Positions 39,001 to 42,000 of a stretch of DNA of 64,000 bases are shown here, piece after piece (position 1 is the stretch's first letter; every line of letters starts with the position of its first letter). Made by a program: the position numbers. Source of the stretch: an uncultured Ignavibacteriales bacterium (GTDB taxonomy: Bacteria > Zixibacteria > MSB-5A5 > GN15 > FEB-12); the NCBI GenBank assembly GCA_964464605.1, contig CAYXJN010000005.1, forward strand, positions 62,001-126,000, written 5' to 3'.

Positions 39001-42000
39001 CTTTCTCTTTTTGATCGCATGATTTACCCCAAAAAGAAACCACCCGTATCCCCCTCGGACACGAGTGGCACCCACCAAAGAGAAAAGAACAGACCGACTG
39101 CTTTACAGCGTCGGATTCAGGACACAAAATGTGTCGCAAATTTTTTGCCGTACCGATGTGGATAACGTGACCGGTTGTCGTATCGCATTGCAAGTCATTG
39201 CGTTACAGGGAGTGCGGCGCATCGAATGTGATGGAAATGAAAGAAAAAGTCGTATGATTTTACGAGCAGGTTGATCTAAATGAAAACGGTAAGCGATTGT
39301 TTTGTAATCACTTACCGTTTCATTTTGACTCTATTTGAGAACGGTACGAATTTCAGTAAAATTCGTGAAACCGTACGTTCTTTTGTCGTCTAATGGAGCG
39401 CAACTCCTTCAACATGAATCTGGTACCGCTTGATCTTCGAACGGACCGTTGCTTCATGAATTCCGAGCAGGCGGGCAGCTTCGGATTTGTTTCCTTTTGC
39501 CGCCAAGAGTGCATCGGTAAGCAGCTGACGTTCAAATTGCTCAATGCGATCGAAGAAGGTGGTCGATTGGACCGCCGTCGTGTTGGTAAACATCGGCCGG
39601 GCGAGTTCAACCAGATCACCGTTACCCAGTTCTTCTGCCTGAGCTTCCAAGCGTTTCACTTTGTTATAGAGTTCGCGCACATTACCCGGCCAATGATAGG
39701 CAAGGAATGTTTGTAACAGTTCTGCGCTGACTTTAAATCCGCGCTGTCCGAGTGTTCCATTCGTAATGAACAGATCAAGCAGCAGCGGGATATCTTCTTT
39801 CCGTTCACGCAGCGCTGGGATATAGTGAATATCTCCGTCACAGATGCGGAAATACAGATCACGGCGGAACAGACCGCCTTCAACAAGCGAGGTCAAATCC
39901 CGATTTGTGGCGCAGATTAGGTTGATATCCAGTTTGACGGGTACCGTGCCGCCGAGCGGAGTAACTTCCCGACGTTCGAGCACACCGAGCAGTTTGGCCT
40001 GTAAATGAAGCGGCATGTCGCCGATTTCATCCAGAAACAATACACCGCCGTTGGCCGCGACGAACAATCCGGCTTTGTCCTCACGTGCGTCGGTAAATGC
40101 ACCGCGGCGATAGCCGAACAATTCCGATTCCAAAAGGGAGTCAGGTACACCGGCACAGTTGATCGACACAAACGGCGTTCCCGGGCGAACCTTGGAATGG
40201 AAAAAACGCGCCATCTGATCTTTACCGACACCTGTTTCTCCCGTTAACAAAACGGGAAGATTGGAGCGTGAGCCGATCAGCACGATCTGCTGTTTTACCC
40301 GTTCGACCGCAGCACAGCGAGTGATGAAATCAGCACTCTGCTGTTTGCTCTGATCGCTGCCGGCGATTTTGCGCTGATTGGTTTGTTCGAGCGCTTCGCC
40401 GATTTTATCGATCATCGTCGTGTGTCCGGATTGCGCGTAATATTCTTCAGCGCGAATCAGGTGCAGTACCCGTTTGTTGACCGGTATAGCAGTTGCGCAG
40501 CCGGCAAAGTATAGGATTTCCGCTTCTTCGAATCGCACACCGGATTGACGGGCTGATTCGATTGCACGGGCCCAGAATTCCTTTGCGGTTTCCTGCTGTG
40601 TTTCCGCTTCGGCAATCATGGCTAAAATGCGGTGCAGTCCGGCAAGATCACCGGTATTCGGCGTTTCCTGCATGACCACGATCGCTTTCTGCGCCAGCTG
40701 ACGGGCAGTGCGATAGTCACGAAGCGAGAGATTAGTTTCGGCTAATTGGCGCATCACGCGCGCGGTTAAACCGGAATCAGGCAGTACCTGTTCGGATAAA
40801 CGCAACGCATGAGCCAATACCTGTTTGCTTTCTTCAAGCAAACCCATACGGCGGCGCAGTTCGCCGATGTAGCTGTAGTACATCACTTCATCTCGCTTGT
40901 CGCCTGATAAACGGAGCGGTGTTACCGCTTCGCTCAAGGTTGCATCCGCTTCGGCATAATGACCGGATTGGATACAGGCGTAGGCGTAGGACATAAGGGC
41001 ACGGGCTGTTTCGGCATGGTCACGCAACGCGCGGGAGAGTTCGATATTGGTGCGCAAATGCGCTTTTGCGGATTGCAAGTTTCCGGAGAACAGATGGATA
41101 CGGCCGATATTACCGGTCATCAGGGCAATTTTTGCCGTATCGTTAAGTTTGTGCGCGATTTCCAGTGCATCGGCCAGAACATTCAACGCATTTTTCAAAT
41201 CATGCTGCTTGAAATAAATTCCGGCGAGACTGTTCAGCGCCCGCGCCTGACCTTCCAACAGGTCAAGGCGACGGAAGAGTGATTCGGCATCACGGAATGC
41301 CTGTTCCGCTTCTTTCGGTTTATCACTCTTTTTGAAAATATTGCCCAGCACGAAGAAAACTTCTGCGAGTTCCGCGGTTTCTCCGTTTTGGGTAAGGAAA
41401 TGCTGCGCCATGCGGGCAGCTTTTAGTGCGGCTGTGAGGTCAGCCAGCGCGCTGTATGCAGAAGCGGCCATTCTCATGAGAATGCCGGATTCTGCATCGG
41501 CTCGCTGTTCAATAACGGGACGATGAATATCCACGTACCGGACCACACCCGCAAAATCCCGCTTTTCAAGTAATGTCGCGGCTATGCGAACATCAAATGA
41601 TGTGGGATTCGACGATTCTGTGAAGGTACGGTTCATCAGTTAGCTCCTCCATTTTTAACGGAGCTGTTGTCTGACGGAGCGGGTTGCGGAGCAACGCGCG
41701 GCTGTTTTGGTGCGATCAGGAGATTGAGTAAGGTGTTCGAAAGCCAGATTTCAAACCGCGGTGAAAGCGTAGCGCTTCGCATTGCCTGACGGCCTGCTTT
41801 ACCGCCGCCGTTACCATTCGTGCCGGAGCCATCGCCACCCCACGGGTGATCTTCATTTTCCACGCCATTTTCGGTATTAGCCGGACGGTGGTAATACGGA
41901 CTTTCCCGTCCGTCTATATCCCCCACAAAAGCAAGGGTGGCAGTGAAGAGCATACTCAAAGTGAGTACAAATGAGCGTTTCATGGACTAAGGCTCCTTTC

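What a model noticed while it worked through the whole genome (the two positions that open the first line are those of the whole stretch)
39031..39265. New structured RNA behind a conserved sigma-54 promoter, next to its activator gene
Between the activator gene g1336 and BMC-H lies a conserved module: a TCGTA-N6-TACGA palindrome, a GGCA-N6-TTGC promoter, a variable hairpin P1, an invariant pyrimidine tract (UUCUUUUCUCUUUGG), and a 13-bp hairpin with a GGGG loop, usually followed by a U tail. It is an RNA family absent from Rfam, present once per genome in most of this bacterial family, always downstream of the activator gene even where the microcompartment genes are missing. It is either a leader/attenuator or an activator-dependent small RNA.
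Evidence so far: - Alignments in calls 140, 142, 147. - Covariation: 9 of 13 pairs on 15 distinct sequences and 11 of 13 on 25, at 95-97% paired, 0 of 500 shuffles, slid controls at most 58%. - Model R1: 1 hit in 2.8 Mb of G000; 22 hits in relatives' loci and none in 28 non-BMC ACT-DUF711 loci; 11 of 16 metagenome loci, all with the activator upstream. - 52 of 151 genomes, one copy each, 48 of 54 in the own family. - The promoter lies 42-54 nt upstream in 27 of 28 hits. - Rfam: nothing at gathering threshold; best 19.5 bits against 105.
(Added by a program. Inside this text positions count along the whole contig: contig position 62,001 is position 1 of the stretch shown here. "Call 12" and the like, gene names such as g00115 and contig names such as C1 are that model's own, and its searches are not shown. 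The text may have been shortened before it was handed on; [...] marks where a part breaks off. The agent that wrote the report below was given it as the finding of a first reader that could run no searches.)

Follow-up and report, generated by a model that had tools for sequence, protein, structure and literature searches.

The report
Sigma-54 small RNA beside its activator
A roughly 95-base non-coding RNA gene with its own sigma-54 promoter and terminator sits just after the gene of its likely activator protein in one order of uncultured Zixibacteria; it is a new example of a known kind of regulator, and its targets are still unknown.

Summary
On the minus strand, a TPR-sigma-54 activator gene (41636-39390) and a BMC-H gene (38942-38424) flank the module. 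It holds a TCGTA-N6-TACGA palindrome, a -24/-12 promoter, a covarying hairpin P1, a pyrimidine tract, and a 13-bp terminator hairpin with a GAGGG(G) loop and U tail. A covariance model finds one copy in 94 of 108 genomes of the family. It hits all four families of the order (Zixibacteria by record titles) and none of 68 genomes from 15 other families. Rfam has no match. Order-wide, 11 of 12 terminator pairs and 8 of 8 P1 pairs show compensatory changes. The promoter and two palindromes travel with the RNA, even in the family where the activator gene lies elsewhere. Downstream genes vary: BMC-H follows in 52 of 94 genomes, 36 have no BMC gene, and some neighbours are convergent. BMC-H also has its own promoter-like site. 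I read this as a stand-alone, activator-dependent small RNA of about 95-105 nt, analogous to Pxr/Nla19 and CrcZ/CbrB. It probably pairs through its CU tract. Targets are unknown and there are no expression data. The tract is not invariant, and 'always downstream of the activator' fails in one family. New member of a known kind.

The parts
39390..41636 (-). Gene of a 748-aa TPR / sigma-54-interaction (AAA+) / HTH_8 enhancer-binding protein, the presumed activator
   Evidence: Pfam: Sigma54_activat 2.7e-56, TPR_12, TPR_MalT, AAA_lid_14, HTH_8. Orthologues of its N-terminal half occur only in the four families that carry the RNA.
39363..39378 (-). Possible distal activator site (UAS2), ACGTACGGTTTCACGA, two mismatches to TCGTA-N6-TACGA
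   Evidence: In relatives a second palindrome, perfect or with up to two mismatches, sits about 226 nt before the model's hit start. In G000 it is degenerate and lies 240 nt before.
39278..39325 (-). Hairpin ..ACGGTAAGTG..CGCTTACCGT.. plus T run between the two palindromes; probable terminator of the activator gene, unusually conserved in sequence
   Evidence: Reading. Alignment of 33 upstream regions. k-mers CGGTAAG/CTTACCG occur in 34 and 32 of 62 loci.
39250..39265 (-). Proximal activator site (UAS1), perfect palindrome TCGTAAAATCATACGA
   Evidence: A palindrome is found in 58 of 62 loci (3 of the rest too short or masked, 1 a weak doubtful hit), at about -137 from the hit start.
39135..39150 (-). 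Sigma-54 type -24/-12 promoter, CGGCAAAAAATTTGCG (GG 39149-48, GC 39137-36)
   Evidence: GGCAY-N5-TTGC lies 7-9 nt before the hit start in 54 of the 56 loci (of 62) that pass the strict pattern. rpoN is present in G000.
39031..39124 (-). Predicted RNA, about 94 nt, from the inferred start (12 nt after the -12 C) to the end of the U tail
   Evidence: Start inferred from promoter geometry. Fold: P1 and the terminator are paired and the tract is single-stranded. Model hit at G000:C5:101029-101138. No experimental ends.
39094..39114 (-). Hairpin P1 (CCGACGCU-GUAA-AGC(A)GUCGG)
   Evidence: Covariation: 8 of 8 pairs have changes on both sides across 50 sequences, 77-87% paired.
39075..39089 (-). Single-stranded pyrimidine tract UUCUUUUCUCUUUGG, the proposed seed
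39039..39069 (-). 13-pair terminator hairpin with loop GAGGG closed by C-G
   Evidence: 11 of 12 modelled pairs have changes on both sides, 97.3% paired. GAGGGG is kept in 34 of 36 sequences that were not chosen by motif.
39031..39038 (-). U tail (UUCUUUUU)
38949..38977 (-). Sigma-70-like promoter of the BMC operon (TTTACA-N17-TATCTT), ending 6 nt before the BMC-H ATG
   Evidence: The same layout passes a strict pattern in 10 of 12 BMC-linked loci. Consensus match only.
38424..38942 (-). BMC-H gene (172 aa), first gene of the BMC-H / EutN / ACT / DUF711 / penicillin-amidase row. It is a neighbour, not shown to be part of the RNA unit
   Evidence: Pfam.

Best explanation
This is an autonomous small-RNA gene.

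Proposed mechanism, with each step marked:
1. The TPR-domain enhancer-binding protein encoded just upstream binds two TCGTA-N6-TACGA sites through its HTH_8 domain. (Inferred.)
2. The bound protein drives sigma-54 RNA polymerase from a -24/-12 promoter. (Promoter, sites and rpoN are shown in sequence; dependence is inferred.)
3. Transcription starts about 12 nt after the -12 GC, at (U)GUC. (Inferred.)
4. Transcription stops at an intrinsic terminator, giving an RNA of about 94 nt in this genome and 100-105 nt in relatives.
5. The RNA folds into a 5' hairpin P1 and the terminator hairpin, leaving a pyrimidine tract of 12-15 nt unpaired between them. (Structure supported by covariation.)
6. The most likely action is Hfq-independent base pairing of the CU tract with purine-rich, Shine-Dalgarno-type regions of mRNAs in trans. 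The nearly invariant GAGGGG terminator loop would be a second contact for an RNA or a protein. (Inferred; no target established.)

The activator seems to have this RNA as its only direct promoter in G000. The RNA would then be the output arm of that sensor.
For: Structure
- MAFFT/RNAalifold on 26 sequences: 6 of 12 terminator pairs have double changes.
- 38 distinct sequences: 91.8% of cells paired, 16 of 20 pairs with double changes, 0 of 500 shuffles as high, slid controls at most 48.7%.
- 50 order-wide sequences: 19 of 20 pairs with double changes, 0 of 500 shuffles, slid controls at most 48.6%.
- Each of 26 sequences folds a hairpin between the 5' end and the tract.

A transcription unit of its own
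- GGCAY-N5-TTGC passes the strict pattern in 56 of 62 loci, 7-9 nt before the hit start in 54 of them, and 3 more are near matches.
- Palindromes lie at about -137 and -226 in 58 of 62 loci.
- At least 6 T in the 9 nt after the stem in 28 of 32 loci without BMC-H downstream and in 18 of 26 with it.

Independence from the downstream gene
- BMC-H follows within 315 nt in 52 of 94 RNA-bearing genomes. 36 have no BMC domain anywhere, and 6 have both but not adjacent.
- Other neighbours are SDR, SSF symporter, PLD and methyltransferase genes, or convergent genes with Pfam support (phosphoglucose isomerase in L052, GATase in L056).
- No BMC-H, EutN, ACT or DUF711 homologue within about 3 kb in 19 loci of f2-f4.

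Link to the activator
- A homologue ends 300-570 nt upstream on the same strand in 58 of 58 loci that have upstream DNA. The same holds in f2 and f3.
- Orthologues of the N-terminal half (E below 1e-40) occur only in f1-f4. The three f1 genomes without an orthologue are the three without the RNA.
- In f4 the RNA keeps its palindromes and promoter although the orthologue lies elsewhere. In G132 the two are about 2.6 Mb apart, and nothing RNA-like lies after the activator gene.

Dedicated pair
- G000 has 6 perfect palindromes, and only this one lies near a sigma-54 promoter.
- With relaxed rules there are 9 co-occurrences, about what chance gives (the chance figure of roughly 10 is my own estimate).

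Distribution
- 94 of 108 family genomes, 68 of 73 high-quality ones, one copy each. Two genomes have a second hit, one of them weak.
- R2: f1 51/54, f2 10/10, f3 3/3, f4 9/15, other families 0/68.

Other
- rpoN is present and Hfq was not found in G000.
- Same gene arrangement as Pxr after nla19 (PMC5568312, passages) and CrcZ after cbrB (PMC5113210, passages).
Against: - No expression evidence. The only runs available are assembled contigs. A metatranscriptome contig set of a relative covers the activator gene and BMC-H but not the RNA. A 181-nt contig of uncertain type covers 39031-39144 and runs on past the terminator.
- No target found. The best ribosome-binding-site matches in G000 (DUF1573, glutathione peroxidase) are not conserved in orthologues.
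- A CU-rich seed matches many Shine-Dalgarno regions by composition alone.
- BMC-H lies directly downstream in 55% of the family's RNA-bearing genomes. Weak U tails (at most 4 T of 9) are commoner there, 7 of 26 against 2 of 32, so read-through into the BMC operon may matter in some lineages.
- The near-invariance of the terminator loop is not explained by simple seed pairing.
- The sequences are kin, and A2-A4 are fitted to the model.
- The G000 promoter is a weak match.
Confidence: 0.6

Rival explanations
1. It is a leader/attenuator. The sigma-54 promoter is the regulated promoter of the BMC operon (or of whatever gene follows). The hairpin is a conditional terminator that is read through when a factor binds the CU tract or the loop.
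For: - BMC-H starts 71-315 nt after the RNA in 52 of 94 family genomes.
- Weak U tails are commoner in BMC-linked loci, 7 of 26 against 2 of 32.
- A relative's metatranscriptome contig over BMC-H reaches 35 nt upstream of the ATG, to 38977. That is beyond a leaderless start, although it may be DNA.
- A sigma-54 activator beside an operon usually regulates that operon (general knowledge).
Against: - 36 of 94 genomes keep the RNA with no BMC domain gene.
- f2-f4 loci have no BMC genes nearby.
- Downstream genes are unrelated to one another or convergent.
- In f4 the unit has moved together with its promoter and terminator.
- BMC-H has a conserved TTTAC(A/T)-N17-TAnnnT 6-9 nt before its ATG in 10 of 12 loci by strict pattern.
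- I found no conserved alternative pairing that would compete with the 12-13-pair stem. GGUGG/CCACC gives 5 pairs in some sequences only (reading).
- Three f1 genomes keep BMC genes but have neither RNA nor activator orthologue.
Confidence: 0.17
2. It is a stand-alone RNA that acts by binding or sequestering a protein rather than by pairing with mRNAs. The pyrimidine run and the GAGGGG loop would be the protein's recognition elements, in the manner of CrcZ or RsmZ.
For: - The two best-conserved features are a composition-conserved pyrimidine run (at least 8 nt in 35 of 36) and a sequence-invariant loop (34 of 36). This fits protein recognition better than a fixed-register seed.
- The register of the tract changes between families.
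- CsrA is encoded in G000.
- No conserved mRNA target was found.
Against: - There is only one candidate GGA-type loop per RNA, whereas known CsrA sponges carry many (recalled).
- No candidate protein is linked to the locus. The only constant neighbour is the activator.
- Nothing here tests protein binding.
Confidence: 0.15
3. There is no functional RNA. The conserved block is DNA-level regulatory sequence (activator sites, promoter) plus an ordinary terminator, or a small protein-coding gene.
For: - No expression data.
- ORFs of 69 and 84 aa overlap the region mechanically.
Against: - Compensatory changes in 19 of 20 pairs argue for selection on RNA pairing.
- The alignment has indels that are not multiples of three and no conserved start codon.
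- The block lies downstream of the promoter, not upstream.
- Loop and tract are conserved across four families.
Confidence: 0.04

Closest known systems
Pxr sRNA and the sigma-54-dependent regulator Nla19 (Myxococcus and other myxobacteria)
   Same: The sRNA gene lies directly downstream of the gene of a sigma-54 enhancer-binding protein. A 262-nt intergenic region holds the enhancer site and a sigma-54 promoter. The RNA is about 108 nt with stem-loops. The position after the regulator gene is conserved across genera while other neighbours change (PMC5568312, passages seen).
   Different: - Different phylum.
- No sequence or structure match: no Rfam family scores in 10 loci. That Pxr is in Rfam is recalled, not checked.
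- Nla19 is a response regulator, whereas this activator has a TPR sensor region and no receiver domain.
- Pxr has three stem-loops; this RNA has two.
- Pxr is experimentally shown; this RNA is not.
CrcZ sRNA and CbrB (Pseudomonas)
   Same: crcZ lies immediately downstream of cbrB. It is transcribed from an RpoN promoter that needs CbrB, with the activator's binding site in the cbrB-crcZ intergenic region (PMC5113210, passages seen).
   Different: - CrcZ is much longer and works by sequestering Hfq/Crc through A-rich motifs (its length is recalled).
- No Hfq was found in G000, and this RNA's motif is pyrimidine-rich.
- CbrB directly controls at least 61 genes (abstract of PMC6296734, in the listing), whereas this activator shows only one convincing site in G000.
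- CrcZ can also arise by processing of a cbrB read-through transcript. Here a terminator-like hairpin separates the two genes.
Qrr sRNAs with LuxO, and GlmY with GlrR (gamma-proteobacteria)
   Same: These are small RNAs whose sigma-54 promoters depend on one dedicated enhancer-binding protein, with at least one copy next to the regulator gene. The RNA is the main output of the sensor pathway (recalled; Qrr/LuxO papers appear only in the listings).
   Different: - They depend on Hfq or RapZ.
- Several paralogues exist.
- The orientation is divergent rather than tandem (recalled).
- They are unrelated in sequence: no Rfam match.
RNA control of ethanolamine microcompartment operons (ANTAR antitermination; EutX/Rli55)
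   Same: A structured RNA with a terminator lies upstream of microcompartment genes (recalled; PMC5821096 seen only in the listing).
   Different: - Those are antitermination leaders with paired hairpins bound by EutV, plus a riboswitch-bearing decoy RNA.
- Here no alternative structure is conserved, and the RNA persists in genomes without microcompartment genes.

Membership tests
Sigma-54 / enhancer-binding-protein dependent promoter | GG at -24 and GC at -12 with fixed spacing (TGGCAC-N5-TTGCW) | tested here: met
   G000 has CGGCAAAAAATTTGCG. GGCAY-N5-TTGC is found in 56 of 62 loci, 7-9 nt before the hit start in 54 of them.
Sigma-54 / enhancer-binding-protein dependent promoter | Upstream activator sites roughly 100-250 bp before the promoter | tested here: met
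   TCGTA-N6-TACGA lies at about -137 and -226 in 58 of 62 loci. It is also present in f2-f4.
Sigma-54 / enhancer-binding-protein dependent promoter | rpoN and an activator with a sigma-54 interaction domain in the genome | tested here: met
   Sigma54_DBD at 206.6 bits in G000. Sigma54_activat 2.7e-56 in the adjacent gene.
Sigma-54 / enhancer-binding-protein dependent promoter | Transcription abolished without RpoN or the activator | not testable with these tools
   Uncultured organisms; no genetics.
Intrinsic (Rho-independent) terminator | G+C-rich stem followed by a U run | tested here: met
   13 pairs (7 G-C) then TTCTTTTT. At least 6 T of 9 in 46 of 58 loci.
Trans-acting base-pairing small RNA | Own promoter and terminator, independent of flanking genes | tested here: met
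   (prediction level).
Trans-acting base-pairing small RNA | Conserved single-stranded seed | tested here: inconclusive
   The tract is unpaired in the folds. It is pyrimidine-rich in 35 of 36, but its register varies between families.
Trans-acting base-pairing small RNA | Identified mRNA target with conserved complementarity | tested here: not met
   - The glutathione peroxidase gene is present in only 18 of 61 genomes, and its ribosome-binding-site match is not conserved.
- The DUF1573 match is unique to G000 among 30 loci.
- The BMC-H 5' end gives no signal.
Trans-acting base-pairing small RNA | Detected as a discrete transcript | tested here: inconclusive
   Only contigs could be laid; none is informative.
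Hfq-dependent sRNA | Hfq encoded in the genome | tested here: not met
   PF17209: 0 matches in G000 (100% complete). The control genomes do match.
Any Rfam 15 family (including known sigma-54-dependent sRNAs) | Score at or above the family's gathering threshold | tested here: not met
   The best hits in the window are 19.1 bits against a threshold of 78 and 18.9 against 50, none overlapping the RNA. No match at E up to 1 in nine loci from four families.
Transcription attenuator / riboswitch leader | A constant downstream gene or operon | tested here: not met
Transcription attenuator / riboswitch leader | A conserved alternative (antiterminator) pairing | tested here: inconclusive
   None seen by eye in A1, A3 and A4. 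No dedicated search was run.

The most novel reading that the evidence does not exclude
The TPR-sensor enhancer-binding protein has this RNA as its only promoter, so an entire sigma-54 signalling pathway in this order of Zixibacteria is read out post-transcriptionally. In this reading the RNA works through a bipartite, Hfq-independent recognition unit that has not been described: a pyrimidine run plus the invariant GAGGGG terminator loop, which are complementary to each other. In the ancestral arrangement it couples that signal to an uncharacterised microcompartment (BMC-H / EutN / ACT / DUF711) whose first gene appears to be leaderless.
Probability: 0.2. Interest if true: 0.65.

Novelty: new member of a known kind. 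Interest (0 to 1): 0.5.

Why it matters
Zixibacteria have no cultured member, and the two searches I ran found no paper on their regulatory RNAs. This would be a core, order-wide riboregulator of the phylum, found in 68 of 73 high-quality genomes of the family.

It comes with an unusually complete predicted circuit: sensor-activator, two binding sites, promoter, RNA and terminator. The whole circuit could be rebuilt in a sigma-54 host without culturing the organism.

It extends the Pxr/Nla19 and CrcZ/CbrB design to the FCB group and to an organism in which no Hfq was found.

It flags a possible regulatory link to a microcompartment locus (ACT-DUF711) for which a full-text search found no paper.

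It is not a new principle. Without expression data or targets its biological role stays open.

Tried and rejected
I laid 4.
  - X1 (soil metatranscriptome) holds contigs of a relative, 87-89% alike. One covers the activator gene and ends at 39338. One covers BMC-H and ends at 38977. None covers the RNA.
  - X2 (type guessed) holds a 181-nt contig, 95% alike, over 39031-39144. It continues 64 nt unlike the window beyond the terminator.
  - None of this shows transcription, ends or strand.
- Targets in G000: ribosome-binding-site windows of 5613 ORFs were scored against the tract and the top 20 were named by Pfam.
  - Glutathione peroxidase has 14 pairs over its Shine-Dalgarno site. The gene is in only 18 of 61 family genomes, and a similar match appears in few of 17 orthologues.
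  - DUF1573: the long match is unique to G000 among 30 loci.
  - The operon's own first ORF scores -19.1 kcal/mol. I did not follow this up.
- Pairing with the BMC-H 5' end: cognate pairs average -12.3 kcal/mol, non-cognate -11.9 and shuffled -12.2, so there is no signal. An ACCAAAG match to the T-K-G codons of BMC-H is absent from G000 and from many other loci.
- Other promoters under the same activator in G000: none convincing.
- Intramolecular loop-tract pseudoknot: YYYCUC in the tract could pair with GAGGGG. But a 5-nt loop on a 12-13-pair stem leaves no connecting nucleotides, and any CU run would match. I rejected it as untestable here.
- 5' ACUCCC pairing with GGGAGU at the loop: not kept in several lineages (reading).
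- A first U-tail count that used RNAfold to find the stem end was faulty. I replaced it with a count based on alignment columns.
- A third activator half-site or an IHF-like motif between UAS1 and the promoter: only weak k-mer enrichment.
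Full report
WHAT IS THERE

The element lies on the minus strand. Reading 5' to 3' on that strand:
- A 748-aa protein gene at 41636-39390 with TPR repeats, a sigma-54 interaction AAA+ domain and an HTH_8 DNA-binding domain.
- A 447-nt intergenic region.
- A gene row: BMC-H (38942-38424), EutN/BMC-P, an ACT-domain protein, DUF711 and a penicillin amidase.

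The intergenic region holds, in order:
- a degenerate palindrome at 39378-39363;
- a hairpin with a T run at 39325-39278;
- the perfect palindrome TCGTAAAATCATACGA at 39265-39250;
- a -24/-12 element CGGCAAAAAATTTGCG at 39150-39135;
- a hairpin P1 at 39114-39094;
- the tract UUCUUUUCUCUUUGG at 39089-39075;
- a 13-pair hairpin at 39069-39039 with a GAGGG loop;
- UUCUUUUU to 39031.

The stretch folds better than all 200 shuffles, z = -3.5. With the predicted ends, P1 and the terminator are paired and the tract is free.

RELATIVES AND TAXON

A BLAST of the 246-nt module against 100 genomes of the same family found matches only to the tract-plus-hairpin part. A motif check gave 26 sequences including G000.

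A pattern scan of 185,579 species' genomes gave 49 loci. Of these, 36 score 75-105 bits with my covariance model R1. The other 13, from unrelated phyla, do not. That is close to the roughly 15 chance matches I had estimated for the pattern.

The titles of the 36 records name Candidatus Zixiibacteriota/Zixibacteria, GN15, 'Ignavibacteriales' bins, one 'Calditrichaeota' bin, or just 'bacterium'. I use this only at phylum level.

Because those 36 were selected by an exact motif, I do not use them to argue invariance.

STRUCTURE

- An alignment made without any model (MAFFT, 26 sequences) gives the terminator hairpin by RNAalifold. 6 of 12 pairs have changes on both sides.
- Each of the 26 sequences folds a hairpin between the 5' end and the tract. 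25 do so at the aligned place and one is shifted.
- On model-fitted alignments:
  - 38 distinct sequences: 91.8% of cells paired, 16 of 20 pairs with double changes.
  - 50 distinct sequences from four families: 91.7% paired, 19 of 20 pairs with double changes. The terminator has 11 of 12 pairs at 97.3% paired. P1 has 8 of 8 pairs at 77-87% paired.
  - No shuffle out of 500 reaches these values, and slid controls stay at or below 49%.
- Caveats: the sequences are related, and A2-A4 are fitted to the model.

WHAT IS CONSERVED

Among 36 sequences found by the model rather than by motif:
- GAGGGG at the hairpin loop is kept in 34.
- A pure pyrimidine run of at least 8 nt, mostly 12-13, is kept in 35.

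The tract's sequence and register change between lineages:
- UCUUUUCUCUUUGG and GGUCCUCUUUUCUUUGG within the family;
- GUCCUUUUUUCUCGG in f2;
- a longer CU repeat in f3;
- CUUCUUUUCUCAUGG in f4.

So 'invariant' is too strong. The 5' end GUCAUUUUUACUCC of most relatives is replaced in G000 by GUCCUGAAUCC.

The G000-specific hairpin GACACAUUUUGUGUC (39135-39121) overlaps the -12 element and the predicted start. It is not part of the family.

PROMOTER AND ACTIVATOR SITES

- GGCAY-N5-TTGC passes a strict pattern in 56 of 62 loci and ends 7-9 nt before the model's hit start in 54 of them. In G000 the model shifts the register. Three more loci are near matches. The remaining loci are a contig end, a masked stretch and one doubtful weak hit.
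- This geometry puts the start at about (U)GUCA. In G000 that is about 39124, giving an RNA of about 94 nt.
- TCGTA-N6-TACGA occurs twice, about 137 and about 226 nt before the hit start, in 58 of 62 loci. It also occurs in the sister families.
- G000 has rpoN.
- In G000 only this locus combines a perfect palindrome with a sigma-54 promoter: 6 perfect palindromes genome-wide. Under relaxed rules there are 9 co-occurrences, about what I estimate for chance.
- The activator therefore seems dedicated to this promoter. This is an inference from one genome.

LINK TO THE ACTIVATOR, NOT TO THE NEXT GENE

Link to the activator:
- A homologue of the activator ends 300-570 nt upstream on the same strand in 58 of 58 loci that have upstream DNA. 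The 62 loci of that call reduce to 39 distinct ones.
- The same holds in f2 and f3, at 36-39% identity.
- Orthologues of the N-terminal sensor half (E below 1e-40) occur only in the four families that have the RNA. Elsewhere only paralogues at 22-29% identity are found.
- In the family sample, the three genomes without an orthologue (G017, G042, G064) are the three without the RNA. All three still have BMC genes. Linked genes can be lost in one deletion, so this is consistent rather than independent evidence.

The f4 exception:
- In f4 the RNA keeps its palindromes and promoter, but no enhancer-binding gene lies within 3 kb.
- The orthologue is elsewhere. In the single-contig genome G132 it is at 0.42 Mb and the RNA at 3.05 Mb.
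- Nothing RNA-like and no palindrome follows the orthologue there.
- So the RNA, with its sites, promoter and terminator, behaves as a movable gene of its own.

Downstream genes:
- I cross-tabulated the family scans for the RNA and for the BMC domain. Of 94 genomes with the RNA:
  - 52 have BMC-H starting 71-315 nt downstream on the same strand;
  - 36 have no BMC domain anywhere;
  - 6 have both but not adjacent.
- 8 genomes have BMC genes without an RNA hit.
- Elsewhere the next genes are an SDR, a sodium:solute symporter, a PLD-like protein, a methyltransferase, or convergent genes. Phosphoglucose isomerase (L052) and a GATase (L056) have Pfam support. By a crude longest-ORF rule, 11 of 56 family loci have a convergent neighbour, at least two of which are artefacts.
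- BMC-H itself is preceded by TTTAC(A/T)-N17-TAnnnT ending 6-9 nt before the ATG in 10 of 12 loci by strict pattern, with no Shine-Dalgarno sequence. Other genes of the family show normal GGAG sites. This suggests a leaderless mRNA from its own promoter. Other lineages instead have a GCUCC...GGAGC hairpin before the ATG.
- U tails are strong (at least 6 T of 9) in 28 of 32 loci without BMC-H downstream and in 18 of 26 with it. Weak tails (at most 4 T) number 2 and 7 respectively. Some read-through in BMC-linked lineages therefore cannot be excluded.

DISTRIBUTION

- R1: 94 of 108 family genomes, 68 of 73 high-quality ones, 43 of 47 genera, one copy each. G005 has hits on two contigs and G011 has a weak second hit.
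- In a sample of 150 genomes of the phylum, R1 gives f1 51/54, f2 10/10, f3 3/3, f4 6/15 and 0/68 in 15 other families.
- A broader model R2, built from 50 order-wide sequences, raises f4 to 9/15 and still finds none elsewhere.
- 'Not found' in f4 and beyond may partly reflect model reach.
- Rfam 15 gives no credible match in the window. It gives none at E up to 1 in nine loci from the four families.

HOW IT MOST LIKELY WORKS

Shown in sequence:
- a sigma-54 promoter with two upstream palindromes;
- a two-hairpin RNA with covariation;
- an intrinsic terminator;
- the link to one activator family.

Inferred:
- the activator binds the palindromes and drives the promoter;
- the product is a stand-alone RNA of about 95-105 nt;
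- the free CU tract pairs with purine-rich ribosome-binding regions.

Hfq was not found in G000, which is 100% complete. CsrA is present.

I could not name a target:
- The best sites in G000 are DUF1573 (-23.5 kcal/mol) and glutathione peroxidase (14 pairs over the Shine-Dalgarno site).
- Neither is conserved in orthologues.
- The tract shows no preference for its own BMC-H 5' end.

The invariant loop remains unexplained. A protein-binding role is a live rival.

COMPARISON WITH WHAT IS KNOWN

The design matches two known cases:
- Pxr lies downstream of the sigma-54 regulator gene nla19. It has a sigma-54 promoter in a 262-nt spacer and is 108 nt long (PMC5568312, passages).
- CrcZ lies immediately downstream of cbrB. 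It has an RpoN- and CbrB-dependent promoter (PMC5113210, passages).

Qrr/LuxO and GlmY/GlrR are further analogues; these are recalled.

This RNA works like these but is not a member of any of them. There is no Rfam match, the phylum is different, the activator carries a TPR sensor rather than a receiver domain, and no Hfq was found.

Full-text searches found no paper on Zixibacteria small RNAs. None joins microcompartments, small RNAs and sigma-54 (the listing shows nothing relevant). None joins DUF711 and microcompartments. I did not open any supplementary files.

VERDICT

This is a real, well-supported, previously uncatalogued RNA family. It is most likely an activator-dependent small RNA. 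It is a new member of a known kind, with open biology: targets, signal, and its relation to the microcompartment locus.

Noticed in passing
window 39278-39325 (-); loci such as L054, L043, L062, L103 about 150-200 nt before the RNA: Between the two activator palindromes lies a hairpin with a T run, GCGGTAAGCG..CGCTTACCGC. Its stem sequence is conserved across many genera, and f2 has GATAAG/CTTATC, a compensatory pair. In most relatives it is preceded by ACUCCUUGGUU. This 'CUC-YUUGGU + hairpin + U run' layout resembles the 3' half of the RNA itself, and R1 gives weak hits of 15-18 bits there. It could be the activator gene's terminator, a 3'-UTR-derived RNA, or the source of the RNA by duplication.
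   Followed up: partly
window 38949-38977 (-) and 38942; 12 BMC-linked loci: BMC-H has no Shine-Dalgarno sequence. It has a TTTAC(A/T)-N17-TAnnnT promoter-like site ending 6-9 nt before its ATG, which suggests a leaderless first gene of the microcompartment operon. Other lineages instead have a GCUCC..GGAGC hairpin abutting the ATG.
   Followed up: partly
window 33714-38942 (-): The microcompartment locus is minimal and odd: a 172-aa BMC-H, one EutN/BMC-P, an ACT-domain protein, DUF711 and a penicillin amidase. A full-text search found no paper holding both DUF711 and microcompartment. G000 has a second BMC-H at C11:45831-46058.
   Followed up: no
G000:C2:163317-163991 (+) and many DUF1573 paralogues in the family: Many DUF1573 paralogues carry a single in-frame TGA. 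In G000 it falls in the motif PG-TGA-GC. G000 also has a tRNA-SeC with anticodon tca. These are probably selenocysteine forms of a DUF1573 redox motif.
   Followed up: partly
L123 (G025), the 150 nt after the RNA's terminator: There is an array of at least seven (A/C)TTCGTAC(C/T) repeats about 20 nt apart, that is, half-sites of the activator palindrome, directly downstream of the RNA.
   Followed up: no
L042 / L014 (G038), first 45 nt of the contig: A second, partial copy of the RNA's 5' end (GAUGUCAUUUUGACUCCGAGCG) lies just upstream of the full copy, at the contig edge. This may be a tandem duplication.
   Followed up: no
window 41636-41983 (-): A 115-aa ORF has a signal-peptide-like start and a low-complexity tail. 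Its stop overlaps the activator's start codon. There is no Pfam match and only weak similarity in three relatives. Its ribosome-binding site scores -19.1 kcal/mol against the RNA's tract.
   Followed up: partly
window 39338 and 38977: In a soil metatranscriptome, a relative's contigs stop about 50 nt after the activator's stop codon, at the first hairpin. Another contig stops 35 nt before the BMC-H ATG. These are contig ends only, so they are not evidence of RNA ends.
   Followed up: no
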